Positions 17,242 through 61,225 of a DNA stretch of 64,000 bases are shown here, piece by piece. The first letter of the stretch is position 1, and each line of letters starts with the position of its first letter. The DNA is from Candidatus Binatia bacterium (GTDB lineage Bacteria; Desulfobacterota; Binatia; UBA9968): contig JBGPGE010000001.1 in NCBI GenBank assembly GCA_041483675.1, positions 868-64,867 on the forward strand, read 5' to 3'. Both the position numbers and the translations under genes were made by a program. The notes under the pieces are model-generated. The model saw nothing but the letters and a program-made list of their open reading frames with translations. It searched no databases and was not told the origin of the DNA.

Positions 17242-17256
17242 GGCCCGTCCCGGGAT

Positions 17257-37254: not shown

Positions 37255-39399
37255 TCAGGGCTGCTCGCTTATTGAATCGGCAACTGCGGAAGAAACTTTA
37301 GTCTCTGCGAGGAGTTTTTCGTAAAGCCCGGTGATCTGCTTATGATCCAGGCCGTCGTCCTGCCAGTATTGCTGGACGTCGGGCCAGAGGCTGCCGATCC
37401 ACTTGACGTAGAACCGCAGCCGGTCCGACTCCTCGCGCTCCGGCTCGGCGCCCGGAGCGACCAGAACGCTCTCCGGCGTGTAAACGGTCTTCCATCCGGC
37501 GGCTTCGGCCTGCAAACAGAAGTCGATGTCGTGCAGGCCGGCGGTATAGCCTTCGTCGATACCGCCTAGGGCGAGAAAGAGCTCCCGGCACGCGAGCAGA
37601 CAACCGCTGACCGCCCGCATCGCCCGCCGCTTGGCGGCGCCGGGTAGAGAGGCCGGAAGGAGTTGATAGAGAGACGAGGGGCTGAAGTTCATATCGAAAG
37701 CGATGCCGGCATGGTGGATCATCCCCTGAGGGTCGATGATCTTTCCGCCCACGATGCCGGTCGCCGGATCTCGTTCCATCTCCTCGACCAGGGCCTCCAG
37801 CCATCCGGGCTGCGGAATCAGACCGGGGGGCAGGATGCAAAGATAGCGCCCCCTGGCCTCCCTCGCGGCAAGATTCAAGAGCGTCGCGATCGACGTCGAA
37901 GAAGACGGGATCGAACGGACATCCCCCTGGACAAAGTCCTGAAGAGCCCGGCTCTCGTCGCCGGCCCCTGCCAAAAGACATTCGTAAGAGATGTCGGCAG
38001 ACGTGTGCTGCGCGACCCCGATGAGGCTCTCCGCCACGCCTTCCATCGAGGTAAAGGGAATGACGATCGAGCAAAGGAATTCTTCGCCTCCCGGTTTCTT
38101 GGCTGACGGGACGTGCGACGAGTTGCGCCTGGCGGCCGGCGCCCGCTTGTTGACCTCCTCCCGCGTCTCGAGCATCTGTTGGATCAGGTCGAGCGTCCTC
38201 TCCATGTTTTCACCGCCAAGCGAATGGAGATTGCGAACCAGATATTGCTCTACCTTCTCTCTCCGCTCTTGCGAAACTCCCTTTTGCAGGATCGACTCCG
38301 CCACTTCCGGCAGGTCCGGCAAGTCGCCGGCCTGATCGGCGACGCCGAGCGAGGTAAACGAGTAATGTTGTCCCGGAACGCGGATCTCCACCAGCGGCTT
38401 GCCGAAGGCCAGTGCCTCCAGACCCGCGGTCGAATTGCCGAACACCGCGCAAACGTCGCTGACCGCCAGGAGCCGGTAGGTGTCGTCCTGCTGGAGCGAA
38501 CGAATGTTGCGAAAGCCGGCGAGCCTCTCGCCGATCTGGTCGATGATCCGTTTGTTGTTGAAGGGATGCCACTTGAAGATCAGGGTCAGGTCCTTCCTGC
38601 GGCGGGCCCAATCGAGCAACGGTTTGGGAAACTCAAAGTCGCTGCCATAACCGAGACCGCCCATCAGGACGGTGACCACGCGCGTTTTGTGGTCGAGCTT
38701 CAGCCGCCGCCGGGTCTGTTTCATCGCCTCCGGCTCCGTCGCCTCGCGTATCGCCGCCGGCAGGTGGGTATTCCCCACCAGATAGATTTTATCCGCCGAG
38801 CTGCCCGAGCGGACCAGCACTTCGCGCGCGGACTCTCCCCACGCGAAGCAGGCGGTCGAGTACTCCGTGTGATAGCGGTAGACTCCCGTGGGTCCCCAGT
38901 AGAGCCCTTCCTGAAGGGTGATGAAAGGAATTCGCAACTCGTTACAGAGATAGCCGAGCATCTTTCCCCAGCTGTTGAGCTCGTGCAGGGCCAGAACCAG
39001 ATCGGGCTTCTCGACCTCGAACATCCGCCGCAGGAGATAGAAATTCTCGAGATGCATGCGCAGCGCTTTGTCCTGGATGGAAAGAGTGAAGTGGTGGAGG
39101 ATGTCGTTCTCCAGGAATCTCTCCTTCCACTGACCCCTCACTTCCCGGTAGGCCCGCTCGATCTCATCGGCGACCTCCGGTGTCAGATAAGAGAACGTAT
39201 GATGGTAAGGCAAACCCTCATCCAGCATCGTGATCTCGAACGGGCTTTCCGCCTGGGCCGTGGGATAGAGGACTTCCATGCCCCGGGCCGCCAGCGCGCG
39301 CGTGATCGGGAAGAGGAAACGGCCGTGATGCTTGAGCGCGATGAAGCAGAACGCCTTCTTGCCTTTAAGATCCATAATGAGCGGCCTCCGGTTTGGCAT
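37255..39399 (-). CDS. Two-domain glycosyltransferase: N-terminal GT-B-like (TagF/capsule-synthesis-like) domain fused to a C-terminal GT2 (GT-A) domain. Candidate flagellin glycosyltransferase
   Basis: 714 aa. The N-terminal half has GT-B-like motifs (TVLMGGLGYG ... FKWHP ... GNSTAGLEALAFGKP). The C-terminal ~260 aa has a GT2 pattern (CSIVIPFTS ... DES ... CLLACRELF ... GGIDEGY). It is the first gene upstream of the flagellins. Confidence 0.65.
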   Translation of the reverse strand: MPNRRPLIMDLKGKKAFCFIALKHHGRFLFPITRALAARGMEVLYPTAQAESPFEITMLDEGLPYHHTFSYLTPEVADEIERAYREVRGQWKERFLENDILHHFTLSIQDKALRMHLENFYLLRRMFEVEKPDLVLALHELNSWGKMLGYLCNELRIPFITLQEGLYWGPTGVYRYHTEYSTACFAWGESAREVLVRSGSSADKIYLVGNTHLPAAIREATEPEAMKQTRRRLKLDHKTRVVTVLMGGLGYGSDFEFPKPLLDWARRRKDLTLIFKWHPFNNKRIIDQIGERLAGFRNIRSLQQDDTYRLLAVSDVCAVFGNSTAGLEALAFGKPLVEIRVPGQHYSFTSLGVADQAGDLPDLPEVAESILQKGVSQERREKVEQYLVRNLHSLGGENMERTLDLIQQMLETREEVNKRAPAARRNSSHVPSAKKPGGEEFLCSIVIPFTSMEGVAESLIGVAQHTSADISYECLLAGAGDESRALQDFVQGDVRSIPSSSTSIATLLNLAAREARGRYLCILPPGLIPQPGWLEALVEEMERDPATGIVGGKIIDPQGMIHHAGIAFDMNFSPSSLYQLLPASLPGAAKRRAMRAVSGCLLACRELFLALGGIDEGYTAGLHDIDFCLQAEAAGWKTVYTPESVLVAPGAEPEREESDRLRFYVKWIGSLWPDVQQYWQDDGLDHKQITGLYEKLLAETKVSSAVADSISEQP

Positions 39400-40582
39400 C
39401 GCGGGACGTCGTGAGGATGTGGCTGATAATTCCGTTCAGGCTTTTCCTGCGCAATAAGCGCCTCTCGATCCAGGATTCGATCATCGGGATGGCCCGCTCA
39501 GGCTCCGGTTCCATGACGAGGTGCTCCCCCACCCAGGCCTTCTGCCCGAACCGCTGGCTGATAATGGTGAGCTTGTCGTAAAAAGAAGATATCTCCGCGT
39601 AAACCGAACAGGCCGCCCCCCAGACGATATCGCCGTAGAGCAGCGTCCAGAGCCATCCCGGCTCCTCGTTGATGATGACGCAGGGAAGGTCCGCGAGTTC
39701 CTTTCGATAGACCTTCTCGACCATTTCTTTCTCCTTGAGACTGTGGCGCGCGACGTTCGGATCGACGTTCAACACCACGGCGACCGGATACTTGAGCAGC
39801 TTGAGGGCCTTGAGGATCTCCCGCGTCTCATAGATGAAGGCGACATTGTGCGGAATAAAAATCACGGTGCTGCCGCCGAGCATGCGAATCTTCGCCTTGA
39901 GCGCCACTGCCTGCTGAAAATATTCATCGAGCACGGAATCCTGCCGGCAAGAGAGCAGATAGACCTCTTCGGGCGGAAGAATGAAGCTCTGCCCGGGGGA
40001 GGCCAGCTCCTGGGACTCGACGAATGAACGCGAAAACTCGCTCTTGACCGCGTAGTAGTCGGCCAGAGACGCGGCGAAGGTCTGACGGTTGCCGAGCGGC
40101 GAAATTTCGACGCCGATCACGGTGGCCGCGGCTTTTTTTGCCTCCAGCGCCATGCCGCCGTAGAAATGAGACGAATCGGCGGTGGTGTTGTCGATGCCTA
40201 TAAGAGGATAGACCAGGACATCCGGCCGGATCGGCAGCGGCGGTCTCTTGTGGAGGCTGAGACAACCCATGTAGTCGTCCATCGCGATGGTTTTCCACAG
40301 CGGGAGCCGGCTGCCGGGAAAGTCGATGTCCTGAATCAGGCGGATCATCAGATCGGTCATCGAAATCGCGTGCTCGGGCAGATGGCGCACGACCTCTTCT
40401 TCGAGATGAAAACTTTTTATCGGGCTATCCGAGAACGCAGCGCAAATCTCCTTGGAGTGGCTAGCCACGCTCACCTCCCACTGCCCGGTGGCGGCGGCCA
40501 TGCTCACTAAATGGCGCAGTTTCCCGTACGTATATTTCCATTCCACTTCGCCGATGGCGAAAAGAACTTGCGGCTTTTTCAT
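39365..40582 (-). CDS. Hypothetical protein (405 aa) in the glycosylation island
   Basis: Co-oriented ORF overlapping the GT gene by 35 nt. I recognise no clear family motifs. Confidence 0.45.
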   Translation of the reverse strand: MKKPQVLFAIGEVEWKYTYGKLRHLVSMAAATGQWEVSVASHSKEICAAFSDSPIKSFHLEEEVVRHLPEHAISMTDLMIRLIQDIDFPGSRLPLWKTIAMDDYMGCLSLHKRPPLPIRPDVLVYPLIGIDNTTADSSHFYGGMALEAKKAAATVIGVEISPLGNRQTFAASLADYYAVKSEFSRSFVESQELASPGQSFILPPEEVYLLSCRQDSVLDEYFQQAVALKAKIRMLGGSTVIFIPHNVAFIYETREILKALKLLKYPVAVVLNVDPNVARHSLKEKEMVEKVYRKELADLPCVIINEEPGWLWTLLYGDIVWGAACSVYAEISSFYDKLTIISQRFGQKAWVGEHLVMEPEPERAIPMIESWIERRLLRRKSLNGIISHILTTSRDAKPEAAHYGS

Positions 40583-40752
40583 CCGTTAAGGCCTCCTGCG
40601 GCAGAACTCGGCTTGAACCGGAAGAAGCAATTAACATGCCCGGCAAAAGGGGAAAATTTTGCCGCCTGAAAAACATTTTTTCGCAGTCTGAATCCTTACT
40701 TAAGACTCTCCGCGAGAAACCGATTAGAAGCTTGAAGCAAGGAGTATTTGCC

Positions 40753-41370: not shown

Positions 41371-41401
41371 CGGCATTCCGGGAAGATGAAGGGAAACCGC
41401 T

Positions 41402-41909: not shown

Positions 41910-42710
41910 TCAAGAGCGATTCTCTAAGAACTTCCACGACATCACTTCCTGCTTGGCCGCGCCCCCGGCCTGGGGAAAGACGAAGCTGTCGGGCCGCGTC
42001 GTATTGCGCGCCGTCAGCTCCGGCCGGCTGTCCAGGAAACGAACAATGTCGTCGGCGTCGAAATCGGCCCGGACGGGATACAGCGCCTCATAGATCTCCC
42101 TGACCAGATCGAGATCCTCCTGGTAATCGACGCACAGGCGGTAGCGCGGCCGATCAAGATTTTCCGGCGCGCGGAGGTTGAGCAGGCGGTAGCGCTGCGG
42201 GTTGCGATAGATAAAGGGCGAAACGTTGCCGCGGTCGTAGGGATCGCTCGTCAAACGCGACACTTCGCGCAGCAAGCCGGCCGAATAGAGCTGAACGTCG
42301 AAGCCGATGGGGAACGAAAGAACGTCGAGCACATTGGTGAGATAATCGCAGCCGCCCGTGAGATACCGGGTAACCGCAGCATCGACGATGCCGGGGTCGA
42401 TCAGCGGACAGTCACCGGTAATGTCGGCGACGATATCGGCGTCGAGCGACTGCGCGGCGCCGATAAGGCGCCCCAGCACGTCGTCCAGAGAGCCGCGGTA
42501 GCAGGCGACGCCTTCAGTTCCCGCAATCTCTTCGAGAACGTCGTCCGGCGGTTCCGCGCTCGTCGCCAAACAGACGGCATCGACTTTTTGGCATCGCTTC
42601 AACCGCTCCAGCAGGCGCCGCGCCATCGGTTGTCCGAGAATCGGCTTTAAATGTTTCCCCGGCAGCCGGCTGGAGCTCATCCGGCTCCTGACCGTGGCCA
42701 CAACTCGCAT
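41910..42710 (-). CDS. Cytidylyltransferase (SpsF/PseF-like CMP-sugar synthetase family, CTP_transf_3)
   Basis: N-terminal RSRMSSSRLPGKHL motif and 266 aa. Confidence 0.65.
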   Translation of the reverse strand: MRVVATVRSRMSSSRLPGKHLKPILGQPMARRLLERLKRCQKVDAVCLATSAEPPDDVLEEIAGTEGVACYRGSLDDVLGRLIGAAQSLDADIVADITGDCPLIDPGIVDAAVTRYLTGGCDYLTNVLDVLSFPIGFDVQLYSAGLLREVSRLTSDPYDRGNVSPFIYRNPQRYRLLNLRAPENLDRPRYRLCVDYQEDLDLVREIYEALYPVRADFDADDIVRFLDSRPELTARNTTRPDSFVFPQAGGAAKQEVMSWKFLENRS

Positions 42711-42932: not shown

Positions 42933-44162
42933 CTACTCCAACAACTCGATCTTCGGCGTCAGCGAGAGCACCTTGGAACTGAGACCGTAACGATCGCGGA
43001 TGTCGCGGGTGATTTCGGCGCTGTACTGGGAGCAGACCAGAATGTAGTCGGGCGCGTTTTTCTGAAGAACCTCAGGCGGCGACACCGCGGTATCGAGATT
43101 CAAAAACTTAAGGCCGTGTTTTCTTCCATCCCGATCGACCACTGCCGTCACCCGCTCGGCGAGCAGCGGCGCGAGCGTCAAGAGCGTGATGCCGAAGGAG
43201 CCGGCGCCCCAGAGGGCGAGGGTCGATCCCTGGCGATTCAGCTTTTCAGCGAGAGAAGTCAACTGCGAGAGATAGGCGTCGAACCGGCTCGCGAAATCCT
43301 TGGCCTGCCCGACCAACCGCTCGACGCGAGACCGGTCGTTGGAGATCTCCGGCCTTCCGGACGCTATGCTGCATAAGGCGACTAAATTCCCCGTCTCATC
43401 AAACAGCCGCTCGACTTTCAGCCCCGCCCGCTCCAGACAAACGCGGAGAGAATTGGGCGTGAAAACCGAGAGATGCTCGAAGTGACAAGGGAGACCCAAG
43501 GGATTGTGCTCGACGAAATAGGCCCCGTTGGGCGTCTCGATAGCGACGAAGCCGTCCGCCCGAACACACTCGCGCGCAGCCGCCGCAAACTTCACGGGAT
43601 CGTCGAGATGCTCGATCAGGTGGCGATTGATCACCGCGCCGAAGCTGCCGCGATCGAACAGCTCGGGTGAAAAGAATTCGCGGACGATCGGAATGCCTCG
43701 CTGCTCGCCGATCTTCGCCCCTTCGCTAGGATCGCAGCCGAGCACCGAAAACCCCTCTTTGGCGAGCTGCAGGAGTAGATAGCCGTCGTAGCAGCCGATC
43801 TCCAGGATGCGCGCTCCCGCTGGCAGCCGCGGCTTGATGTTCTCTTTGAACACGGCGACAAATTCATCCGCGTCCTCAGTGGCGAAGCCCAGCTCCAGCT
43901 TGGATAGATAGGTGGTGTAGAGGCTGCGATAGAGGTCCTGAAGCATGTCGTCGCTCGGTCTCGACAGCAGAAGAAAATGGCCGCAATCGCGACAAATGCC
44001 CAGCCTGAGCGGTAAAGTGGGCGAAATATTCTTGCTTTTCAGCTCGGCGATCCCCGCGTCGGAGATCGGCCGCAGCACCAGGGGAAATTGCGGAAACGCG
44101 CAGACCGGCTCGATATTTTTGCCGCGGCAGACATTACACTCGTGGACATCCAGTAGTTTCAT
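42933..44162 (-). CDS. SAM-dependent methyltransferase with N-terminal Zn-ribbon (sugar C-/O-methyltransferase type)
   Basis: CNVCRG ... CRDCGH zinc-ribbon, then class-I MTase motif ILEIGCYDG. The start at 44162 has a strong RBS GGAGAGG. Confidence 0.7.
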   Translation of the reverse strand: MKLLDVHECNVCRGKNIEPVCAFPQFPLVLRPISDAGIAELKSKNISPTLPLRLGICRDCGHFLLLSRPSDDMLQDLYRSLYTTYLSKLELGFATEDADEFVAVFKENIKPRLPAGARILEIGCYDGYLLLQLAKEGFSVLGCDPSEGAKIGEQRGIPIVREFFSPELFDRGSFGAVINRHLIEHLDDPVKFAAAARECVRADGFVAIETPNGAYFVEHNPLGLPCHFEHLSVFTPNSLRVCLERAGLKVERLFDETGNLVALCSIASGRPEISNDRSRVERLVGQAKDFASRFDAYLSQLTSLAEKLNRQGSTLALWGAGSFGITLLTLAPLLAERVTAVVDRDGRKHGLKFLNLDTAVSPPEVLQKNAPDYILVCSQYSAEITRDIRDRYGLSSKVLSLTPKIELLE

Positions 44163-44225
44163 AATTTTCCTCTCCGTTCTTGGAACTTGCTCCATTTCAC
44201 TGGAGGTCGACTACCTCCCCATTCC

Positions 44226-44333
44226 GTCATTCCCGCGCAAGCGGGAATCCAGTCTTTGCCTCATGGCCCGCTCCGCCACCAGCCTGGATGCCCGCTTTCG
44301 CGGGCATGACGGACTTTCGCTTCGCCTAAAGCC
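44226..44333. repeat. MITE-like palindromic repeat, copy 4 (type 2)
   Basis: About 90% identical to 29883-29990. The track ORF 43945..44559 runs through it and is spurious. Confidence 0.8.
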
Positions 44334-44365
44334 TGCCCCCGACCCGATCGGGGGGCGAGGGGTTT

Positions 44366-45235
44366 CTACCACCCCCGATAAGGACACGAAGCCTCGGCCA
44401 CCACGCTCCCTTCAAAGTCGTCGATTTCAAAACGCCGCCCCAGCCGTTCCAGCATGGGCTCTACCCAGTTTCTCGACTGCTCATCGAGAAGATAAAGGGG
44501 GTTCCGGCCGAGACGCTCGGTCCACAAGCGAACGAGGCCGCGCGCCGACGCCGCGATGAACCGGCTCCCGTTCGATTCCCACGCGCGGCACACTCCGGCC
44601 GAGATCGAATCCAAAAGCAACTTTTCCCAGTCGTAGTCCAGCCAACGGTTCAACGGGCGGACGTGGTAAAGGAGCAGAATGCGCTGAACCATCCGGTCCG
44701 CGCCGATGACTTCGCCCGGAAACCGTTTGTCGTAGCGGTACAGCGGCCCGCCCGCTGAGCGCTCGACATGATGGATAATCGTCGCGGCGGAAAACGGCGC
44801 GCCGTAAAACAGAATCGCGCCGTCCTGCTCGACGAGCCTGGCAAACGGCGACCTCGGGCCGAAGGGATCTATTTGCCCCACGCGATCGAACTCCGGGCGC
44901 CGCCCTACCCCGGCAAACGAAAACACCGGCGTCGGTGTGCGCCACCGCGCGACGGTGGTCCGAAAATGTTCCGTCAAGGGGCCAACCTCGGAGACGTCGC
45001 TCAAGACGTCGTAACTCCCGGAGCGGGGAAAGCCATAGTTGAACGCCGGCATCCAGAGTCCCCGCTCCCCGGCGATTTCACGCACGAGATCGACGTGAGC
45101 CGTGAGCCACTCATTCCGCCCCGCGGAGACCGGGAGCAGACGGCCCGCGCGCAACAGGTCCGAGTGAACCAACAAAGGCCCGTCGCCCAATCCGTCGATC
45201 AGACGCTCAAGGGTCGTTTTCGGCGTTTCCGTCAT
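44366..45235 (-). CDS. AAC(3)-family (aminoglycoside N3-acetyltransferase-like) acyltransferase
   Basis: About 290 aa from the internal Met. LLVHSDLL ... motif and length fit the Antibiotic_NAT family. Its start overlaps the ACP stop. Confidence 0.55.
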   Translation of the reverse strand: MTETPKTTLERLIDGLGDGPLLVHSDLLRAGRLLPVSAGRNEWLTAHVDLVREIAGERGLWMPAFNYGFPRSGSYDVLSDVSEVGPLTEHFRTTVARWRTPTPVFSFAGVGRRPEFDRVGQIDPFGPRSPFARLVEQDGAILFYGAPFSAATIIHHVERSAGGPLYRYDKRFPGEVIGADRMVQRILLLYHVRPLNRWLDYDWEKLLLDSISAGVCRAWESNGSRFIAASARGLVRLWTERLGRNPLYLLDEQSRNWVEPMLERLGRRFEIDDFEGSVVAEASCPYRGW

Positions 45236-45480
45236 TGCAACAGCGCGCCTTCGCCGCCGAGTTTGGAAGCCAGGGCCTCCACGCTGTCCATCTTCTCGAT
45301 CTCCTCGGCGCTGAAGTGAACTTGGAACTCTTCTTCGAGCGCCAAGATAGTGCGCAGGTGATTGAGCGAGTCCCATTTTTCGCAATCGGCGAGCGGCGAC
45401 TTGAGCGGCACCCGCTCCACGGCGATGGCCAGCATATCCGCGACCACCTGCCGGACTTTTTGGATGATGACATTGTTCAT
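45232..45480 (-). CDS. Acyl carrier protein
   Basis: 82 aa with the DSL phosphopantetheine-attachment motif (EKWDSLNHLRTILALEEEF). Confidence 0.8.
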   Translation of the reverse strand: MNNVIIQKVRQVVADMLAIAVERVPLKSPLADCEKWDSLNHLRTILALEEEFQVHFSAEEIEKMDSVEALASKLGGEGALLQ

Positions 45481-54206: not shown

Positions 54207-56032
54207 AGAGCGAACTCCTCCAGAAACATTTTGCTCGTGAGAAAGTAGAAGAGAAACTTGCTCTCGCTGTTGGGCAGCTCGGCCTTTTTGATCAACGCTT
54301 CGATCGGCTCGCGCCGGAGATAGTCGAAGATCGGGCTCGGCTCGAGCAGCGCCTCGCGCACCTGCGGGTCGCGCACGTCGAGAAAGGAAAAGATCGGCGC
54401 GTTGAAGCCCACCTTGCGCGGGTTCGCGAGGATGCGCTCCGGCGCGATGCCGCGCATGGCGTCTCTCAGCACCGCCTTGGCGAAGCCGTCGCGGATCAGA
54501 TGGCGCGACGGGATCGAGTGGCAAAACTCGAACAGCCGCCGGTCGAGATAGGGCGAGCGATTCTCGATCGAAAAATACATCGCGTTGAGATCGTCTTCGT
54601 GGAGGATCACCGGCACCGCTTCGTGAAAGATCTCGTTCAGCATGCGGTTGCGGAGCACGCTCTCGCTGTAGCGCTCCTCGCCGAACGGCTCGGTCCAGTC
54701 GGTCGTCAGATAGCGGCCGAAGCCGTCGGCGTTGAGGAAGATGTGGTCGCGCAGCTCGGGATTGGCGATGAAGGCGTCGGGGTCGCTGAGATAGGGATTG
54801 CGCACGATCGGTTTGATCTTGTCCATCCATGCCCGGCGCGCCGCCGGATAGAGCGTCGCGTCGCCGTGAATCTCATGGAGATAGGCCAGGTGGTGATCGA
54901 AGTAGCCGGTGAACAGCTCGTCGGCGCCGGTGCCGCTGACTGAAATGCGGTAGCCGTGTTGTGCCACACTCTCCATCAGCAGCCAGTGGGCGAAGTAGGT
55001 GATGGTATAGACCGGGGCGTCGTGGTATCGGATCAGCTCGCGGAGCTTGGCGAGAAAGCGGTCGGTGTTTACCGGGATGGTCGTGTGGCGGATGGCGAGC
55101 TCGCCGACCGCGTACTCGACCAGCTCCTGCTCTTCGTAACGGGCATCGGAGTTGGCGATGGTGAAGCCGTGGACGTCGTAGTTGAAAACGTTTTTCGCGA
55201 TGGCAATGAGCGCGTTGGAATCGACGCCGCCGCTCATGCAAAAGGCGAGCGGCACGTCGGCGCGGAGCCTCAACCCGACGGAGCGGATCAGCTGCTCGCG
55301 CGCGCCGGCGACCGCGTCGCCGTAACTCATCCTCTCGTCGGGCGCGATTCGGGGCTGCCAGTAGCGATACTGTTCCTCGCGGCCGGCGGCGTCGAGCAGC
55401 AGGACGGAGCCGGGCTTCAACTCGGAAAGGCCGTTAAAGAAGGTGTGACCATTTTTGTAAAGCGATTTGTAGCCGTTCACGAGATAGCGGAAGACCTGCT
55501 CGCGATCGACTTCCAGCCGCCGTCCCCGGAGGGCCGTGATAAATTTCACTTCCGAGCCGAAATAGAGCCCGCTCTCGTCGCGGTAGAGATAGAGCGGTTT
55601 TTCGCCGAAGCGGTCCCGGCTGAGCAGCAGCGAGCCGTCCCGCGTGTCGTAGAGCGCGAAGGCCCACATCCCTTCGCACCGGTCCAAGCCCTGCCAGCCG
55701 AATTCACCGACGGCCCGGAGCAGCACCTCCGTGTCGGACTCTGTTTCGAAGGAGTGGCCGAGAGCAGCCAGCTCCTGCTTAAGCTCCACGTAGTTGTAAA
55801 GCTCGCCGTTGTAGATCAACGCCTTGGAACCGACGCGAAACGGCTGATGAGAACGCTCGTCGAGGTCGATGATGCTGAGCCTGGTGTGGAGCAGATAGGC
55901 GTTGCGCGTCGCGAAGCGGTGGTGAAACAGCGCCGCATGGTCCGGCCCGCGCCGCCCCATGAGGCGGAGACACTCATCCAGCCGCTCGCGACCGATCTCC
56001 TTGCTGCCGATGTATCCTGCGATGCCACACAT
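54203..56032 (-). CDS. asnB: Asparagine synthetase (glutamine-hydrolysing) family amidotransferase
   Basis: N-terminal MCGIAG Ntn nucleophile, PP-loop CMSGGVDS, and 609 aa. Confidence 0.85.
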   Translation of the reverse strand: MCGIAGYIGSKEIGRERLDECLRLMGRRGPDHAALFHHRFATRNAYLLHTRLSIIDLDERSHQPFRVGSKALIYNGELYNYVELKQELAALGHSFETESDTEVLLRAVGEFGWQGLDRCEGMWAFALYDTRDGSLLLSRDRFGEKPLYLYRDESGLYFGSEVKFITALRGRRLEVDREQVFRYLVNGYKSLYKNGHTFFNGLSELKPGSVLLLDAAGREEQYRYWQPRIAPDERMSYGDAVAGAREQLIRSVGLRLRADVPLAFCMSGGVDSNALIAIAKNVFNYDVHGFTIANSDARYEEQELVEYAVGELAIRHTTIPVNTDRFLAKLRELIRYHDAPVYTITYFAHWLLMESVAQHGYRISVSGTGADELFTGYFDHHLAYLHEIHGDATLYPAARRAWMDKIKPIVRNPYLSDPDAFIANPELRDHIFLNADGFGRYLTTDWTEPFGEERYSESVLRNRMLNEIFHEAVPVILHEDDLNAMYFSIENRSPYLDRRLFEFCHSIPSRHLIRDGFAKAVLRDAMRGIAPERILANPRKVGFNAPIFSFLDVRDPQVREALLEPSPIFDYLRREPIEALIKKAELPNSESKFLFYFLTSKMFLEEFAL

Positions 56033-56033
56033 A

Positions 56034-56066
56034 AATTTTGGATTTTCGATTTTAGATTTTGGATTA
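56034..56066. repeat. Heptamer array (Ngatttt units) immediately upstream of the asnB start codon
   Basis: aaatttt ggatttt cgatttt agatttt ggatt abuts the ATG at 56032. A similar motif occurs at 6405-6420. Confidence 0.6.
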
Positions 56067-56070
56067 AAAC

Positions 56071-56090
56071 GGGCGCGATGAATCGCGCCC
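56071..56090 (-). terminator. Rho-independent terminator after the neuB-like gene
   Basis: GGGCGCGA-TGAA-TCGCGCCC stem-loop followed on the minus strand by GTTTTAATCC. Confidence 0.6.
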
Positions 56091-56103
56091 CTACGCTTGG
56101 CTC

Positions 56104-56176
56104 TTACCTCTTTCTTTCTATCCTCTATCCTCCATCCTCGATCCTCCTGCCTCTTGCCTCCTGCCTTCTGCCTCCA
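56104..56176. repeat. Heptamer-periodic array (tatcctc/gatcctc/ctgcctc units) spanning the 3' end of the neuB-like gene
   Basis: About 10 degenerate 7-bp units. They encode the last ~18 aa of the ORF (..EAEGRRQEAGGSRMEDRG*) and the stop. Confidence 0.65.
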
Positions 56177-57188
56177 CCTGCAGGTGGCGCTCCAGCACCG
56201 CCTCGTGCCGTCGGAGCGGCACCGCCAGGCGGCGCCCCGCGAGATAACGCGCCGCCGAGGGCGGCAGCCCGTTGCCCGGTCTCACAAATTCAAAATCGTC
56301 AAGCGACAGCCGCGCCCCCGCCGGCAGGTTGCGGGCGGCCACCACGCTCCTTCGCGCCGCCGCCATCGTCTCCATCTCCGAGACGCCGGGTCGCTTTTTG
56401 CCGTCGCCCATCATCTCATCCAACGAGTGAAGCGCCTGGGCGAGCCGCTTGAGATCGGCGGGATCGGCCGACATCGCGTGGTCACGAAACGTGGCGCGGC
56501 TCTTGTCCAGCGTGAAATGCTTTTCAATGACGCGCGCGCCGAGACAGGCGGCGACGATCGCCGCCTCGATGCCCAGCGTGTGGTCCGAGTAGCCGGTGAT
56601 AAAACCGAACGCCTCTTCCAGCGTCTCGATCGCCTTGAGGTTGGCCTCGGCCAGCGGCGTCGGATAGGCGCTGACGCAATGGAGCAGCGCGAGCGAGTCG
56701 AACAACAACTTCTCCGGCGGAAGATTGAGCGCGACCGTCGCCACCGCCCGCTCGACCTCTTCGAGCGTCCCCATGCCGGTCGAGAGAATCATCGGCTTGC
56801 CCGTCTCAGCGGCGGCCGAAAGGAGCTGGACGTAATTGAGATCGCCCGAAGCGATCTTGATCGCGTCGGCCAGCCCCGCCACTTCGCCGAGGCTATGCGG
56901 ATCGAACGGCGTGGCGATGAACAACATTCCTTCGGATCGGGCGAGATCGGCCATCGCCTCGAACGTCCCTTCCGGCAGCCGGAATCGCTCCAGTTGCGCG
57001 ACGCGCTCCTGCTGGGCGGCGTTCACCAGCCGTTCGGCGCGGATCGCCTGGACTTTTACGGCGTCGGCGCCGGCTTCGGCGGCCGCGGCCACCATTTCCA
57101 TCGCCAGCGACGGCTCCCCTTCGTGGTTGTTGCCGATCTCCGCGACGAGCAGGCGCTGTCGCTTCAAGTCGCGGCCTTCGAGAATCAT
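56118..57188 (-). CDS. N-acylneuraminate-9-phosphate/pseudaminic/legionaminic acid synthase family (NeuB/PseI/LegI-like) with C-terminal SAF domain
   Basis: Hallmark AEIGNNHEG motif, YPTP motif, and a C-terminal antifreeze-like domain. The start is at the internal Met (57188), overlapping the GNAT stop. Confidence 0.8.
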   Translation of the reverse strand: MILEGRDLKRQRLLVAEIGNNHEGEPSLAMEMVAAAAEAGADAVKVQAIRAERLVNAAQQERVAQLERFRLPEGTFEAMADLARSEGMLFIATPFDPHSLGEVAGLADAIKIASGDLNYVQLLSAAAETGKPMILSTGMGTLEEVERAVATVALNLPPEKLLFDSLALLHCVSAYPTPLAEANLKAIETLEEAFGFITGYSDHTLGIEAAIVAACLGARVIEKHFTLDKSRATFRDHAMSADPADLKRLAQALHSLDEMMGDGKKRPGVSEMETMAAARRSVVAARNLPAGARLSLDDFEFVRPGNGLPPSAARYLAGRRLAVPLRRHEAVLERHLQVEAEGRRQEAGGSRMEDRG

Positions 57189-58009
57189 CCCAAACACCTC
57201 GCCTTCTTCAAATGACAATGGAGCACGTAAGCGGTCTCGGCGATGCGGAACCCGAGCCCTTCGTAGAGTCTGAGGGAAAGCAGATTGGCGGCTTGCGTGC
57301 CGACACGCAGCAACAGTCCCGCGGACGCCGCCTCTTCTTGCAGATTGGAGACCAGCGCCTTGCCGACGCCCGAGCCCTGGTGCGTCCGATCCACTCCGAT
57401 GAGGTCGATCGTGCGGCACGGCTCGCTGTCGAGGCTCGACGCGAGCACCGCGAGAAACCCGACCGGCGTCCCGTGGCGCAAAGCAACGAGCAGCTTCTCG
57501 CCGCGCTGCCGCGTGAGGTAGCTCTTCACCCATTCGCGCTTGATCGCGTGAGCGAGCGCGGTTGGGATTTCAGGGTCGAGGCGAAAGCGCGAGTAGGCAA
57601 AGCAGGAGCCGGCGATGTCCAACACCGCGTCATATTCGGCGGGCAGAATTTCCCGCACCGTGACCGGCAACGCATCGTTCTCCCGCGCGCGCCGCGGCGA
57701 TTGGTATTCGAAAGTTACGTTCACGTCCACTACCCCGAAGCCCGACTGCGCCAACGCTTGCACAAAATCCACCCGCCGGGTCGGGACCTTGGCATAGTAA
57801 AACGCCCGAGCGCCCGCTGAGGCGCCTGTCAGCAGCCGCAGTTGATGCGCGGCAACCGCTTCTCCAAGGTCGGCGGCGGAAGGCCGGCCGCCGTCGAACG
57901 GGACCTTAAAGGCATCGTAGCCGAAGATCCTCGACAGCCAGGCGTCGCGCTCAATCTTCACCCCGGACACGACGGGCCGCGCCGGGGATGGGGATGGTTC
58001 GAGGTTCAT
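57185..58009 (-). CDS. GNAT-family N-acetyltransferase (PseH-like candidate)
   Basis: GNAT motif A (LIGVDRTHQGSGVGKALV). The start at 58009 overlaps the SDR stop (ATGA). Confidence 0.65.
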   Translation of the reverse strand: MNLEPSPSPARPVVSGVKIERDAWLSRIFGYDAFKVPFDGGRPSAADLGEAVAAHQLRLLTGASAGARAFYYAKVPTRRVDFVQALAQSGFGVVDVNVTFEYQSPRRARENDALPVTVREILPAEYDAVLDIAGSCFAYSRFRLDPEIPTALAHAIKREWVKSYLTRQRGEKLLVALRHGTPVGFLAVLASSLDSEPCRTIDLIGVDRTHQGSGVGKALVSNLQEEAASAGLLLRVGTQAANLLSLRLYEGLGFRIAETAYVLHCHLKKARCLG

Positions 58010-59052
58010 CAGGCGACTTTTTTCTCGGCCGGAGCGATCTTCCGGTCCAGCTCGCGGTACCACTCGATGTATCTGGGGAAGCCCACCTCCACCGGATTCG
58101 CCGGCTGGTAGCCGAGCAGGCGGCGCGCTTTATCGACACACAAGGTTCCGCGCATCGGCATGAGATGGTCGCGCTCGACGTACTCCACGCGCACGGCGGG
58201 AAACGCCTGCTTGACGACTTCGAGGAGATCTTTGATCGAGCGCGACTCGCCGTAGGTCAGATTGAAGATCTGATTTTTCGCCTCCGGCCGCTGCAAGACG
58301 AGCAGAATCCCCTGCACCAGGTCGTCGATGTGGGTGAAGTCGAGTTTTTCGCCGCCGTCGCCGTCGACGCGCAGCGTGGCGCTGCTCATCGCGCTCTCGA
58401 TAAAGATCTGCCCGACGCGGCGGCTCACGCAGCGCGGCCCGTAGAGCGCCGAGGGGCGGACGATCGTGTAGGGCAGGTCGAACACCTGCTGGTAGGCGAT
58501 GACCAGTTTTTCGCCGCCGACCTTGAGCGCGCCGTAGATGCCGATCGGCTCCAGCGGATGCGTTTCCTCGACCTGCTCGGTGAGAAAGTTGCCGTAGGCC
58601 ATGCTGGAGGAGAAAAAGACAAACTGTTCGAGCGCGACGCCGCGCGCGTAGTCGAGCGCGTTCTCCAACGTCACCAGGCTGTTGTCGAACGTGCTGTAGG
58701 GGTCCTTGTTGGAGCGCCCGGCGTGGGCGATCGCCGCGAGGTGGACGATGGCCTGCGGCTGGATCTGGCCAAGCACCCGCGATAGGCCGTGATAGTCGCG
58801 GGCGTCGAGCATGGAGATCGGCACCCTGGCTTCGCGCAAGAGCTCCAGCCGCTCGCCGATGATGCTGAGATAGAGCTCCCGCTGCGCCAGCTCCGGCATC
58901 TTGGCCGCGAACGACAGCAGGTTGTTGTGCTGCATGCTGTCGATGATGCTCACCTCGGCATGCTGCGCGGCGAGCGCGATCGCCAGGTTGTGGCCGATGA
59001 ATCCTGCGCCGCCGATCAATGCTATTTTTCGTCCTTTTAACGAAACACTCAT
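58009..59052 (-). CDS. NAD-dependent epimerase/dehydratase (extended SDR; nucleotide-sugar 4,6-dehydratase/epimerase)
   Basis: GGAGFIGHNL Rossmann motif and YGALK catalytic YxxxK. 347 aa from the internal Met. Confidence 0.8.
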   Translation of the reverse strand: MSVSLKGRKIALIGGAGFIGHNLAIALAAQHAEVSIIDSMQHNNLLSFAAKMPELAQRELYLSIIGERLELLREARVPISMLDARDYHGLSRVLGQIQPQAIVHLAAIAHAGRSNKDPYSTFDNSLVTLENALDYARGVALEQFVFFSSSMAYGNFLTEQVEETHPLEPIGIYGALKVGGEKLVIAYQQVFDLPYTIVRPSALYGPRCVSRRVGQIFIESAMSSATLRVDGDGGEKLDFTHIDDLVQGILLVLQRPEAKNQIFNLTYGESRSIKDLLEVVKQAFPAVRVEYVERDHLMPMRGTLCVDKARRLLGYQPANPVEVGFPRYIEWYRELDRKIAPAEKKVA

Positions 59053-60218
59053 TATTGCATCTCCTTTGTCGCCTGTGTCGCCTGGACGAAACTTTCCGCT
59101 ATGTAATCCATGTCCGCCGGCGTCAGGTGCGGCCCGACCGGCAACGCGATCGACTGGTCGCTGATCCGCGCGGCGTTGGGAAAATCCTCGGCGCGGTAGC
59201 CGTATTTGTCCCGGTAATAGGTCATGCGCGGCACCGGCTGGGGATAGTAAACGCTCGTGCCCACGCCGCGCTGCTGAAGCCGGGCGACGATCTCGTTGCG
59301 CTGCTTGCCCAACTCGCCGAGCAGCACGGCGCTGAAGCAATAGTGGCTGTTGTCCTGCGACTCCTCGACCGCGTCCAAGACCAACACGCCTTCCTGCTTC
59401 CCGAGATGGGACTTAAGCCGATAGAAATTGTCGCGGCGGCGCTCGAGGTTTTCCTCGATGCGGGCGATCTGCTGCCGGCCGAGCGCCGCTTGCAGCTCGC
59501 TCATCCGATAGTTGAGGCCGAGCGTCGGCACGTCGTAGAGGCCCGGCACCGAGCGTTCGCCGTGCGTCCGGTCCACTCCAAAGGCGCGCAGCTTATCCAC
59601 CCCTGCCGCGACGTCCTTACGGCGCGTCACCAGCATCCCGCCCTCTCCGGTGGTGATGTGCTTGACCGGGTAGAAAGAAAAACAGCCGGCGTCGCCGAAC
59701 AGCCCGACGTGCTGTCGCCGATAACGCGAGCCGAGCGCGACGGCGCAGTCTTCCACGACTTTCAGGCCCCGGCGCTCAGCCAACGCCATGATCTCCGTCA
59801 TGCCGCAGGGAATGCCGAGCAGGTGGACCACCGACAGCGCCTTGGTCTTGGGCGTCAGCGCCGCTTCGATCCGCTCCGCCGTGAGATTTCCCGTCGCCGG
59901 GTCGCAATCGACGAAGATCGGCTTCGCGCCGACCCATTCCACGGCGTGGACGGTGGCGACGTGCGTCTGGGCGGGCACGATCACTTCGTCGCCGGGGCCG
60001 ACGCCGAGTTGCAGGTAGGCCAGGTGCAGCGCCGCCATGCAGGAGCTCAAGCTCACGCAATGGGCGCCGCGGCCGATAAACGCGCCGAACTCTTCCTCGA
60101 ATGCTTTGCCTTCGGGGCCGTGCGTCAACACCGGCCCTTGCAGCACGGCCGTCACCGCCTTGCGCTCGTCATCGGTAATCCAGGGTTTGCCGAAAGGAAT
60201 CGATCGTTGCGTAGTCAT
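59052..60218 (-). CDS. DegT/DnrJ/EryC1/StrS-family PLP-dependent sugar aminotransferase (PseC/LegC-like)
   Basis: Conserved Lys region (SFYPVKHITTGEGGML) and overall DegT pattern. About 389 aa from the internal Met. Confidence 0.85.
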   Translation of the reverse strand: MTTQRSIPFGKPWITDDERKAVTAVLQGPVLTHGPEGKAFEEEFGAFIGRGAHCVSLSSCMAALHLAYLQLGVGPGDEVIVPAQTHVATVHAVEWVGAKPIFVDCDPATGNLTAERIEAALTPKTKALSVVHLLGIPCGMTEIMALAERRGLKVVEDCAVALGSRYRRQHVGLFGDAGCFSFYPVKHITTGEGGMLVTRRKDVAAGVDKLRAFGVDRTHGERSVPGLYDVPTLGLNYRMSELQAALGRQQIARIEENLERRRDNFYRLKSHLGKQEGVLVLDAVEESQDNSHYCFSAVLLGELGKQRNEIVARLQQRGVGTSVYYPQPVPRMTYYRDKYGYRAEDFPNAARISDQSIALPVGPHLTPADMDYIAESFVQATQATKEMQ

Positions 60219-61225
60219 ACGTAGGGAACCTCCTCTTCTAATCCGGATTGCAAGGACCGGTCGCACGCCGCGCAAACGCTGATCGCGTCGAACATCTCCT
60301 GCGTGTGGCCGCCGAGATCGGCATCGGACAAAATCGCGTCGACGAACGGGCCGATCCCCACGCCCTTGCCCGCGGGGAGCGCGCCGAGGTCAATCGGTTT
60401 AGCCGCCGTCGCCGGATCTCTCGTCGAGTGCCAGCGCGCGCCCGCATCGTCGGTGACGAGCGTCGCCTCGGTGCCGAACAGGCGCAAGACGTGCTGGTGG
60501 CGATGGACGCAGCCGAAGTTCGCGGTGACGCGGGCGAGCAGTCCCGACGGGCAGCGCAACTCAGCGGCAACGTAATCGAGATAGCGAAACGGCGTGTTCT
60601 CGGAGCAGATGCGGTTGCCCGCGGCATGGACCGACTGCGGCCGCTCGCCGGTGAGCCACAACAGCAGGTCCACGAGATGGACGCCGCCTCCCGCCATGAC
60701 GGAATAGTTTTCCACCCGGCTGCGCCATCCTTCCATGATCTTGCCGAGCCGTCCGTAAAGATAGTCGCCGTCGAAGGCATAGAGCTTGCCGAAGCGGCCA
60801 GCGTCGATAGTCTCTTTGATCCAGCCGTAGAGCGGCGCCTGGCGCAGCACCATGTTGGAGGAGAGCTTCAACCGCCCTCCGTGTCTCAGCCAGGCGCGTT
60901 TGATCGCGAGCAGCTCGTCCACCGTGCGGCAGAGCGGCTTTTCGACGAAGACGTGCTTGCCCGCTTCGAGCGCGGCGATCGCCTGGCCGAAGTGTGCGTC
61001 GTCGTAGGAGGCGATCGAGATCGCCTGCACTTCGGGATCTTCGAGAATCTGTTCGAAATGGGTGGCGGCTTTTTCCGCGCCCAGCTCGGCCGCCAGCGCG
61101 CCCGCTTTGGGCGCGTCGATGTCGTAGAGCCATCTGAGCCGGCAGCGACCCGTCGCCCGATAGGCGCGGGCATGCTCCGCCCCGATGCCCAGACCGACTA
61201 CTGCGACGCCGAGTGGAGCGCTCAT
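60215..61225 (-). CDS. Gfo/Idh/MocA-family NAD(P)-dependent oxidoreductase
   Basis: N-terminal Rossmann fold VAVVGLGIGAEHA and the EKPL motif. About 336 aa from the internal Met. Confidence 0.75.
   Translation of the reverse strand: MSAPLGVAVVGLGIGAEHARAYRATGRCRLRWLYDIDAPKAGALAAELGAEKAATHFEQILEDPEVQAISIASYDDAHFGQAIAALEAGKHVFVEKPLCRTVDELLAIKRAWLRHGGRLKLSSNMVLRQAPLYGWIKETIDAGRFGKLYAFDGDYLYGRLGKIMEGWRSRVENYSVMAGGGVHLVDLLLWLTGERPQSVHAAGNRICSENTPFRYLDYVAAELRCPSGLLARVTANFGCVHRHQHVLRLFGTEATLVTDDAGARWHSTRDPATAAKPIDLGALPAGKGVGIGPFVDAILSDADLGGHTQEMFDAISVCAACDRSLQSGLEEEVPYV

What the first reader, a model, noticed from the sequence alone, without database searches (positions are those of the whole stretch)
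37255..39399. 714-aa GT-B-like + GT2 fusion protein immediately upstream of flagellin: candidate flagellin glycosyltransferase replacing Maf-type enzymes
No Maf/DUF115-type motility-accessory-factor gene is evident in the island. Instead, the gene adjacent to fliC encodes a TagF/capsule-synthesis-like GT-B domain (FKWHP, GNSTAGLEALAFGKP) fused to a GT-A/GT2 domain with a DxD-like DES. Retaining Kdo/nonulosonate transferases of the KpsC/KpsS class share the GT-B-like fold of the N-terminal half. A bifunctional enzyme could add a nonulosonic acid and a second sugar, or transfer a disaccharide, onto flagellin Ser/Thr. A 405-aa protein of unknown function is translationally coupled to it.
Basis: inference. 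Interest (0 to 1): 0.6.

Follow-up and report, generated by a model that had tools for sequence, protein, structure and literature searches.

The report
Candidate third-class flagellin sialic-acid-like glycosyltransferase
A conserved two-gene module sits between a nonulosonic-acid sugar pathway and the flagellin gene in several uncultured phyla that lack the known Maf or FlmG enzymes, so it is the best candidate for a new kind of flagellin-glycosylating enzyme, but this is not proven.

Summary
The ORF is real (37255-39399, minus strand). Its true start is probably M9 (ATG at 39375), giving 706 aa. The N-half is a confident GT-B fold. The upstream 405-aa gene overlaps it by 11 nt and is itself a divergent GT-B-like protein.

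Context across 80 species-level genomes (Binatia, Desulfobacterales, Nitrospirota, Methylomirabilota):
- The partner lies directly upstream in 64 of 72 loci.
- Flagellin lies directly downstream in 29 of 67.
- NeuB or flagellin is nearby in 37 of 48.
- A separate PseG/NeuC-type hydrolase is present in 22 of 48, so the N-half is not generally the pathway hydrolase.
- No Maf, TPR or other glycosyltransferase is common in these islands.

The closest curated sequence family is the Tannerella Pse/Leg transferases. Relatives without the GT2 domain sit inside Pse clusters of polysaccharide loci. However, the closest solved structures are UDP-GlcNAc 2-epimerases and TagF.

Verdict: a plausible non-Maf, non-FlmG flagellin nonulosonate transferase system. 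Which of the three GT-like modules catalyses transfer is unresolved, and two-sugar bifunctionality is doubtful.

The parts
37255..39375 (-). Fusion gene, probably 706 aa from M9. The maximal ORF reaches 39399 (714 aa).
   Evidence: ORF list and translation. GGAGG plus ATG at 39375 and an 11-nt overlap with the upstream stop codon. Public gene call is 706 aa. About 115 full-length homologues.
38110..39375 (-). N-terminal GT-B domain (aa 9 to ~430). Proposed CMP-nonulosonate-binding catalytic module.
38563..38574 (-). KWHP motif (K276, H278 and P279 invariant). H278 aligns with WecB H213 and matches the 'HP' nucleotide-phosphate motif of bacterial sialyltransferase-type GT-B enzymes.
   Evidence: Motif definition from PMC5420450 and PMC7439481.
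38905..38913 (-). QEG (Q163-E164-G165; E164 and G165 invariant) at the end of a beta-strand of the N-terminal Rossmann subdomain. It aligns with WecB E117-A-G and is a possible D/E-D/E-G-type catalytic motif.
37330..38079 (-). C-terminal GT-A/GT2-like domain (aa 441 to ~690) without a DxD motif. Proposed acceptor-binding or atypical second module.
   Evidence: Pfam PF00535 23.1 bits; NCBIfam MftF E 3e-9. Profile against PDB GT2 domains, E 7e-10. Only 5 invariant columns out of 249; mean pairwise identity 33% against 40% for the N-half.
37822..37833 (-). LPPG at the position of the canonical GT-A DxD motif.
   Evidence: Aligned to K4CP L-D-C-D and ppGalNAc-T1 L-D-A-H. Column counts: P 55 of 76, G 58 of 76. 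Translation.
39365..40582 (-). 405-aa partner gene, translationally coupled to the fusion gene. Divergent GT-B-like protein with no Pfam or NCBIfam family.
36103..36969 (-). Flagellin (288 aa), the proposed acceptor. It has a Ser/Thr-rich central segment.
   Evidence: Flagellin_N and Flagellin_C Pfam hits. Sequence.
37075..37101 (-). Sigma-28-like promoter TAAAGTTT-N11-GGCGATAA in the spacer upstream of flagellin.
   Evidence: 1 mismatch to the consensus. Only 2 matches in the window against 0.15 expected. Sequence.
41910..42710 (-). CMP-sugar cytidylyltransferase (CTP_transf_3), which activates the donor sugar.
42933..61282 (-). Nonulosonic-acid biosynthesis and decoration island. It encodes two methyltransferases, an aminoglycoside-N-acetyltransferase-like protein, FkbH, DUF4910, two AsnB-like proteins, a WbuX amidotransferase, NeuB (56118-57533), a GNAT, a 4,6-dehydratase, a DegT aminotransferase and a Gfo/Idh/MocA oxidoreductase.
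31621..35948 (-). Flagellar filament genes downstream: fliD, fliS, a fliT-like gene, a response regulator, a second flagellin (32086-32958) and a second fliS.

Best explanation
The fusion protein and its co-translated 405-aa partner form a cytoplasmic flagellin O-glycosylation system. It uses the CMP-activated nonulosonic acid (Pse/Leg-type) made by the adjacent island. It fills the role that Maf or FlmG enzymes play in other bacteria.

Proposed mechanism (inferred):
- The N-terminal GT-B domain binds CMP-NulO in its C-terminal Rossmann subdomain, using KWHP His278, Ser323/Thr324 and Glu328.
- It uses conserved N-subdomain residues (HH-R 24-27, HE-N-WGK 139-146, QEG 163-165) to transfer the sugar to Ser/Thr hydroxyls of flagellin before export.
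- The C-terminal GT2-like domain has lost the DxD metal site and evolves faster. It most likely acts as an acceptor (flagellin)-recognition or scaffolding module rather than a classical UDP-sugar transferase.
- The GT-B-like partner is an obligate accessory subunit (specificity factor) or a second enzyme.

Shown: folds, motifs, family-wide conservation and synteny. Inferred: donor, acceptor, and which module is catalytic.
For: 1. Synteny across phyla. The partner is directly upstream in 64 of 72 loci. Flagellin lies within 1.2 kb downstream on the same strand in 29 of 67. In 48 loci with at least 5 kb on both sides, 37 hold flagellin or NeuB. This includes cultured Desulfospira joergensenii: flagellin-partner-fusion-PseB-?-PseI-PseF-PseG.
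2. No alternative transferase. A Pfam census of 89 neighbouring ORFs from 16 flagellin-adjacent loci gives NeuB (13), CTP_transf_3 (12), methyltransferases, dehydratases and aminotransferases. No MAF_flag10, TPR or other GT family is in the top 25. None appears in the window island.
3. Not the pathway hydrolase. A separate PseG- or NeuC-like gene is present in 22 of 48 loci, including complete Pse sets in L005 and L076.
4. All 8 diverse members hit the BFO_1060 model (best E 7e-16). That family is the genetically validated Tannerella Pse/Leg transferases. 6 of 8 hit TIGR04396.
5. Relatives of the N-half that lack the GT2 domain are embedded in Pse clusters of polysaccharide loci (L092, L093).
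6. The GT-B fold is confident. The transferases among the top structural neighbours (TagF, TarL, Bcs3) use cytidine-nucleotide donors.
7. The invariant KWHP and QEG resemble the HP and D/E-D/E-G sialyltransferase motifs.
8. The 11-nt start/stop overlap with the partner is conserved in L001 and L004.
Against: - There are no biochemical or genetic data for any family member.
- The closest solved structures by Foldseek are UDP-GlcNAc 2-epimerases (E 6e-16). hhalign to an epimerase profile gives 98.4% over the full length, with E140~D95 and H278~H213 retained.
- The window island and several compact islands (e.g. L001) contain no recognisable PseG/LegG, so a biosynthetic role cannot be excluded there.
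- About half of the loci have no flagellin within 7 kb. A Magnetobacterium-group clade has no partner, NeuB or flagellin nearby.
- The BFO_1060 hit covers only the nucleotide-binding half and is far below the model cut-off (50 bits against 200).
- In B. subtilis, SpsA (GT2) and SpsB (TagB-like with DEG/HP motifs) lie next to Leg genes but were not required for Leg transfer.
Confidence: 0.55

Rival explanations
1. Biosynthetic enzyme. The epimerase-like N-half, or the partner, is the nucleotide-sugar hydrolase or hydrolysing 2-epimerase (PseG/LegG/NeuC function) that this island otherwise lacks. It would be fused to a GT2-like module, and the real flagellin transferase would be elsewhere or be the GT-A-like half.
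For: - Pfam Epimerase_2 scores above its gathering cut-off (43.5 against 30.6 bits).
- hhalign to an epimerase profile gives 98.4% over the full length, with E140~D95, Q163/E164~E117 and H278~H213.
- No PseG/NeuC/WecB-like ORF exists anywhere in the 64-kb window.
- The compact island in L001 also lacks one.
Against: - 22 of 48 loci carry a separate PseG- or NeuC-like gene together with both partner and fusion, including complete Pse operons in L005 and L076.
- The WecB E131 loop is deleted, and the GTRPE..K UDP-binding motif is replaced by ALKHHxRF.
- The wecB equivalog model scores 22.9 bits against a 210 cut-off, and no hydrolysing-epimerase model was reported at E <= 0.01.
- The best curated match is a NulO transferase family in 8 of 8 members, against wecB in 2 of 8.
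Confidence: 0.13
2. Glycan-building or other-acceptor transferase. The pair works on nonulosonate-containing glycans but not directly on flagellin Ser/Thr. It could extend or modify a glycan already attached to flagellin, or glycosylate another surface protein or polysaccharide. Flagellin adjacency would then reflect a shared sugar supply.
For: - Only 29 of 67 loci have flagellin directly downstream. Many Desulfobacteraceae loci show the pair among sugar-modification genes without flagellin within 7 kb.
- Relatives of the N-half occur in polysaccharide loci with flippases.
- Three GT-like modules suggest more than one transfer step.
Against: - No other candidate for the first, protein-linked transfer is encoded in flagellin-adjacent islands.
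- The same gene order, partner-fusion-flagellin, recurs in Binatia, Desulfobacterota, Nitrospirota and Methylomirabilota.
- The proteins have no recognisable membrane or export features, whereas polysaccharide relatives have a different architecture with the domain at the C-terminus.
Confidence: 0.2
3. The GT-A-like C-half is the real CMP-NulO transferase. It would be metal-independent and DxD-less, as in GT42 or Maf-type folds. The epimerase-like N-half and the partner would be non-catalytic or regulatory.
For: - Loss of DxD is expected for CMP-sugar enzymes that need no metal (cites this for sialyltransferases).
- Maf enzymes are GT-A-like.
- D626, N509, G565 and N571 are invariant.
Against: - The C-half is the less conserved half: 5 invariant columns out of 249, against 26 of 406 for the N-half.
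- It is homologous to ordinary UDP-sugar GT2 enzymes, not to GT42 or Maf.
- N-half relatives occur in Pse clusters without it.
Confidence: 0.1

Closest known systems
Maf (motility accessory factor; MAF_flag10/DUF115) flagellin nonulosonate transferases
   Same: Proposed role and genomic logic are the same. Both are cytoplasmic enzymes encoded beside flagellin and a CMP-Pse/Leg pathway. Some Maf enzymes need a cis-encoded partner (Maf-2 with GlfM), which parallels the conserved 405-aa partner.
   Different: No MAF_flag10 domain. The architecture is GT-B plus a GT2-like domain, and the partner is a 405-aa GT-B-like protein rather than a four-helix bundle.
FlmG (Caulobacterales; TPR + GT-B flagellin Pse/Leg transferase)
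   Same: A modular protein O-glycosyltransferase in which a GT-B catalytic domain is joined to a separate, presumed acceptor-binding domain.
   Different: There is no TPR. The GT-B domain is N-terminal, and the second module is a DxD-less GT-A-like domain. The taxonomic range also differs. Homology of the two GT-B domains could not be tested because no FlmG sequence was available.
Tannerella forsythia Tanf_01245 / TFUB4_00887 (BFO_1060 family) Pse/Leg-derivative transferases
   Same: This is the best curated sequence match for the nucleotide-binding subdomain (8 of 8 members; best E 7e-16). Both have an HP motif and association with CMP-NulO loci.
   Different: The match covers only model positions 209-365 at 50 bits, against a 200-bit cut-off. 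The acceptor there is a glycan (ManNAcA) on S-layer O-glycans, not a protein hydroxyl. Those proteins are 445 aa with no GT2 fusion.
UDP-GlcNAc 2-epimerases (WecB / NeuC / LegG; Pfam Epimerase_2)
   Same: These are the closest solved structures, with full-length profile homology (Foldseek E 6e-16; hhalign 98.4%). GNT, H213 and E296 equivalents are retained.
   Different: The E131 loop is deleted and the UDP-binding GTRPE motif is replaced. Equivalog models are not met. The protein co-occurs with separate PseG/NeuC genes and is fused to a GT2-like domain.
TagF / TarL / Bcs3 CDP-polyol phosphotransferases (GT-B)
   Different: The window protein has no Pfam Glyphos_transf hit. There is no polyol-phosphate pathway in the island.
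KpsC/KpsS (GT107, Capsule_synth) and KpsS1 (GT118) retaining Kdo/Pse transferases.
   Same: A weak Capsule_synth signal (E 1.5e-3) and the HP region align.

Membership tests
Maf flagellin glycosyltransferases | MAF_flag10 / DUF115 (PF01973) domain | tested here: not met
   Pfam and NCBIfam scans of the fusion and the partner at E <= 0.01 list no such domain.
FlmG | N-terminal TPR flagellin-binding domain followed by a C-terminal GT-B domain | tested here: not met
   No TPR hit. The GT-B domain is N-terminal and the C-terminal domain is GT2-like. FlmG definition.
FlmG | Sequence homology of the GT-B domain to the FlmG catalytic domain | not testable with these tools
   No FlmG sequence could be fetched. 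The ~600-aa relatives with a C-terminal domain that were checked lie in polysaccharide loci and show no TPR.
UDP-GlcNAc 2-epimerase (Epimerase_2; WecB/NeuC/LegG) | Pfam PF02350 score above the gathering cut-off | tested here: met
   43.5 bits against 30.6, but only profile positions 120-287 of 347 are matched. A full-length profile-profile match gives 98.4%.
UDP-GlcNAc 2-epimerase (Epimerase_2; WecB/NeuC/LegG) | Equivalog-level model (TIGR00236 wecB, or a hydrolysing NeuC model) | tested here: not met
   wecB scores 22.9 bits against a 210 cut-off. No NeuC-type model was reported.
UDP-GlcNAc 2-epimerase (Epimerase_2; WecB/NeuC/LegG) | Catalytic carboxylates D95 / E117 / E131, plus H213 (E. coli WecB numbering; from my knowledge of the family) | tested here: inconclusive
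   E140 aligns with D95, Q163/E164 with E117 and H278 with H213, but the E131 loop (SPWPEEA) falls in a deletion. This is a sequence alignment only, without superposition of coordinates.
UDP-GlcNAc 2-epimerase (Epimerase_2; WecB/NeuC/LegG) | Being the only hydrolase/epimerase of the NulO pathway in its locus | tested here: not met
   A separate PseG- or NeuC-like gene is present in 22 of 48 well-flanked loci. None is found in this window, however.
BFO_1060 family NulO transferases (NF046086) | Score at or above the curated cut-off over the whole model | tested here: not met
   50 bits against 200. Only model positions 209-365 of 365 are matched. 8 of 8 family members hit at E <= 1e-3.
Bacterial GT-B sialyltransferase-type enzymes | HP motif | tested here: met
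   KWHP, with K276, H278 and P279 invariant in 76 sequences. The motif is described.
Bacterial GT-B sialyltransferase-type enzymes | D/E-D/E-G motif | tested here: inconclusive
   QEG (E164 and G165 invariant; Q163 at least 90% conserved) is a partial match at a structurally plausible position.
GT2 / GT-A glycosyltransferases | Homology to PF00535 or to solved GT2 domains | tested here: met
   PF00535 scores 23.1 bits against 23.3 for this protein. Many homologues carry PF00535 or PF13641. The profile matches PDB GT2 domains at E 7e-10.
GT2 / GT-A glycosyltransferases | DxD (or DxH) metal/nucleotide-binding motif | tested here: not met
   LPPG occupies the aligned position. No acidic residue is conserved there.
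KpsC/KpsS (Capsule_synth, GT107) | PF05159 score above the cut-off; close fold match | tested here: not met
TagF-like CDP-glycerol phosphotransferases | PF04464 match | tested here: inconclusive

The most novel reading that the evidence does not exclude
This is a third, evolutionarily independent class of flagellin nonulosonate O-glycosyltransferase system. It would consist of a GT-B catalytic domain recruited from the 2-epimerase/TagF lineage, fused to a degenerate (DxD-less) GT-A domain that serves as the flagellin-recognition module, plus an obligate pseudo-GT-B partner. It would be widespread in Desulfobacterota, Nitrospirota, Binatota and Methylomirabilota, which lack Maf and FlmG.
Probability: 0.35. 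Interest if true: 0.75.

Novelty: new variant of a known kind. Interest (0 to 1): 0.62.

Why it matters
Only two enzyme classes, Maf and FlmG, are known to put sialic-acid-like sugars on flagellin. How flagellin is recognised is understood only for TPR domains and GlfM.

A third architecture would:
- explain how large, mostly uncultured lineages with Pse/Leg islands but no Maf glycosylate their flagella;
- give a new example of glycosyltransferase-like folds reused as substrate-recognition or accessory modules;
- add a soluble protein-O-nonulosonyl transferase to the glyco-engineering toolbox.

A cultured host, Desulfospira joergensenii DSM 10085, carries a compact version (flagellin-partner-fusion-Pse operon), which makes the hypothesis directly testable.

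Tried and rejected
- A possible paralogue pair at 15088-18543 (717 aa + 428 aa) turned out to be a histidine kinase and a ketoacyl synthase.
- A sequence-only PDB search could not place the N-half; the hits were epimerases at E ~1e-3.
- hhalign of the partner family against the fusion (9.6%) and against WecB (2%) is not significant, although the alignments are colinear.
- The afdb50 fold library was unavailable, so no annotated AlphaFold neighbours were obtained.
- The listing of cluster members gave no useful names for distant relatives.
- The ~600-aa relatives that I suspected were FlmG-like have no TPR and lie in polysaccharide loci.
- phmmer with PseG, NeuC and WecB found no hydrolase in the window.
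- Literature searches for a described third class or a 'pseudaminyltransferase' of this type found nothing beyond Maf, FlmG, Tannerella and KpsS1.
- Only the N-half and the partner were modelled.
Full report
**1. Observation**

The ORF 37255..39399 (minus strand, ATG, 714 codons) exists. FKWHP is at aa 275-279 and GNSTAGLEALAFGKP at aa 321-335.

The upstream 405-aa ORF (39365..40582) ends ...CAT TAT GGA TCT TAA. The in-frame ATG of residue M9 of the fusion sits in ATGGATCTTAA, with GGAGG 9 nt upstream. Public gene calls for the identical protein give 706 aa (P0001), and all homologues start at this position. The real protein is therefore most likely 706 aa, with an 11-nt start/stop overlap with the partner gene. 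The same overlap is seen in L001 and L004.

A 288-aa flagellin follows after a 285-bp spacer. The spacer holds a sigma-28-like site, TAAAGTTT-N11-GGCGATAA.

**2. The surrounding island (all on the minus strand)**

Downstream lie fliD, fliS, a fliT-like gene, a response regulator, a second flagellin, a second fliS and motA/motB.

Upstream of the pair lie:
- a CTP_transf_3 cytidylyltransferase;
- two methyltransferases and an N-acetyltransferase;
- FkbH, DUF4910 and two AsnB-like enzymes;
- a WbuX amidotransferase;
- NeuB, a GNAT, a 4,6-dehydratase, a DegT aminotransferase and a Gfo/Idh/MocA oxidoreductase.

This is a nonulosonic-acid (NulO) biosynthesis and decoration island. No ORF in it hits MAF_flag10, TPR or any other glycosyltransferase family. 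No PseG/NeuC/WecB-like ORF exists anywhere in the 64-kb window.

**3. Anatomy of the fusion**

*N-half.* AlphaFold2, using a 76-sequence alignment, gives pLDDT 91 for aa 1-440. The model has two Rossmann subdomains plus a helical insertion at aa 74-130.
- Foldseek ranks 2-epimerases first (E 6e-16).
- Profile-profile comparison with a small epimerase alignment gives 98.4% probability over the full length. E140 aligns with WecB D95, Q163/E164 with E117, GNTH with GNTVID, H278 with H213 and E328 with E296.
- However, the loop carrying E131 is deleted, and the UDP-binding GTRPE..K motif is replaced by the family-specific ALKHHxRF.

Equally, the fold alone cannot separate a transferase from an epimerase or hydrolase.

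At the curated-family level:
- Pfam Epimerase_2 is above its cut-off (43.5 bits), but only for the central part of the profile.
- Capsule_synth is below its cut-off.
- The best NCBIfam hit is BFO_1060 (E 2.4e-13, aa 259-411).
- All 8 diverse members hit BFO_1060, 6 of 8 hit TIGR04396 and only 2 of 8 hit wecB.

BFO_1060 is the family of Tannerella forsythia Tanf_01245 and TFUB4_00887. Their deletion removes the terminal Pse or Leg derivative from the S-layer O-glycan while the CMP-sugar pool persists. They carry the HP and D/E-D/E-G motifs (PMC5420450).

*C-half.* It is homologous to GT2 enzymes: chondroitin synthase E 7e-10, ppGalNAc-T1 E 9e-9, MftF E 3e-9.
- In both PDB alignments the DxD/DxH position (K4CP L-D-C-D; ppGalNAc-T1 L-D-A-H) aligns with L-P-P-G (aa 523-526). 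Across 76 sequences this is P in 55 and G in 58, with no conserved acid.
- The C-half has 5 invariant columns out of 249 and mean pairwise identity of 33%. The N-half has 26 of 406 and 40%.

**4. Comparative genomics**

The fusion architecture is conserved full-length in about 115 cluster representatives. A scan of one genome per GTDB species returned 80 loci. They come from Binatia, Desulfobacterales, Nitrospirota, Methylomirabilota, Syntrophorhabdus and others. One is cultured Desulfospira joergensenii DSM 10085.

Counts:

| Feature | Loci |
|---|---|
| Partner directly upstream | 64 of 72 |
| Flagellin within 1.2 kb downstream, same strand | 29 of 67 |
| Flagellin present (loci with >= 5 kb both sides) | 24 of 48 |
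| NeuB present | 32 of 48 |
| Flagellin or NeuB present | 37 of 48 |
| Separate PseG- or NeuC-like gene | 22 of 48 |
| None of these (Magnetobacterium-group clade, also lacking the partner) | 5 of 48 |

Complete canonical Pse gene sets co-occur with the pair:
- L005: PseC, PseG, PseH, PseI and others.
- D. joergensenii: flagellin (1339 aa)-partner-fusion-PseB-?-PseI-PseF-PseG.

I ran a Pfam census of 89 neighbouring ORFs from 16 flagellin-adjacent loci. It found NeuB (13), CTP_transf_3 (12), methyltransferases, dehydratases and aminotransferases. No Maf, TPR or other GT family was among the 25 commonest.

A full-database phmmer search with the N-half found 949 representatives at E <= 1e-3. They include stand-alone ~400-aa proteins and ~600-aa proteins with the domain at the C-terminus. 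Two of the latter lie inside Pse clusters of polysaccharide loci. The clearest is L093: PseB-rSAM-[590 aa]-PseC-PseF/PseI-PseG-PseH, with a flippase nearby.

**5. Interpretation**

The most economical reading is that this domain family has one function everywhere. That function is not a step of CMP-NulO synthesis, because it coexists with complete pathways. It is tied to CMP-NulO supply, and in about half of the lineages it is tied physically to flagellin, where no other transferase is encoded. This points to a NulO transferase acting on flagellin.

I favour the N-half as the catalytic module for three reasons:
- it has dense invariant polar residues;
- it resembles the BFO_1060 family;
- its relatives occur in Pse clusters without the GT2 domain.

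I read the DxD-less, faster-evolving GT2-like half as an acceptor-recognition or scaffolding module. This would be analogous to the TPR domain of FlmG and Maf-1, or to GlfM of Maf-2. The partner would be an accessory subunit or a second enzyme. All of this is inference.

Known flagellin NulO transferases are only Maf and FlmG. I found no description of this architecture.

**6. Caveats and rivals**

- The epimerase homology is real. This window lacks any recognisable PseG/LegG, so a biosynthetic hydrolase role cannot be excluded locally (confidence 0.13).
- About half of the loci lack a nearby flagellin, so the pair may serve other acceptors or extend glycans (confidence 0.20).
- The GT-A-like half could be the metal-independent NulO transferase (confidence 0.10).
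- The B. subtilis precedent is a warning. SpsA (GT2) and SpsB (TagB-like with DEG/HP motifs) lie next to Leg genes but are dispensable for Leg transfer (PMC7439481).

**7. Verdict**

The interpretation as a Maf-replacing flagellin glycosyltransferase is the best-supported hypothesis (confidence about 0.55) but is unproven. The two-sugar bifunctional idea is weakened. Novelty: a new variant of a known kind of system. Interest: 0.62.

Noticed in passing
window 42933-56032: The sugar-decoration part of the island encodes FkbH (a glyceryl-ACP-forming type), a WbuX N-acetyl-sugar amidotransferase, two AsnB-like amidotransferases, a DUF4910/DUF2172 aminopeptidase-like protein and two methyltransferases, one with a C-methyltransferase C-terminal domain. 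This suggests a heavily modified nonulosonate, for example with acetamidino and glyceroyl groups as in Tannerella Pse5Am7Gra.
   Followed up: no
window 1-64000 (island 41910-61282): No PseG-, NeuC/LegG- or WecB-like ORF is detectable anywhere in the window, although NeuB, a cytidylyltransferase, a dehydratase, an aminotransferase and an acetyltransferase are present. The nucleotide-sugar hydrolase step is unaccounted for locally.
   Followed up: partly
window 37274-37300 (-): A second sigma-28-like site (TAAAGTTT-N11-GCCGATTC, 2 mismatches) lies inside the last 45 nt of the fusion gene, about 200 nt upstream of the intergenic one. These are the only two matches in the window (0.15 expected). 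Two hairpin-forming inverted repeats lie between them, at roughly 37165-37225.
   Followed up: partly
window 40636-41577: This stretch is ambiguous. There is a 293-aa ORF on the minus strand and a 244-aa ORF on the plus strand. Public gene calls use the plus-strand one. Neither has any Pfam or NCBIfam match. It separates the partner gene from the cytidylyltransferase.
   Followed up: partly
L003, L006, L067, L070, L076, L079, L080, L089: In Desulfobacterales the pair sits next to giant flagellins of 945-1339 aa, some with left-handed beta-helix (Hexapep/LbH)-like inserts, often in tandem copies. In Binatia and in this window the flagellins are minimal (284-290 aa).
   Followed up: no
L045, L069, L074, L082, L085-L088, L090 (Magnetobacterium-group Nitrospirota); L007: A divergent clade of the fusion (26-29% identity) lacks the partner, NeuB and flagellin nearby. 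In L085 it follows a 694-aa radical-SAM protein and a GT2-like gene, which suggests a different substrate.
   Followed up: partly
L094 (protein P0169): A stand-alone 443-aa homologue of the N-half (36% identity, E 3e-80) lies in a phage-like gene string (RNA ligase, polynucleotide kinase/phosphatase-like gene, many small ORFs) with no sugar genes in view.
   Followed up: no
L001, L004, L005, L014, L018, L052: Many related islands encode a ~690-aa fusion of a CMP-sugar cytidylyltransferase (CTP_transf_3) with a class-III aminotransferase, immediately upstream of the partner gene. This is an unusual pathway fusion.
   Followed up: no
window 31621-36969: There are two flagellin paralogues (288 and 290 aa), each followed by its own fliS. 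A stand-alone response-regulator gene (33096-33488) lies between the two filament modules.
   Followed up: partly
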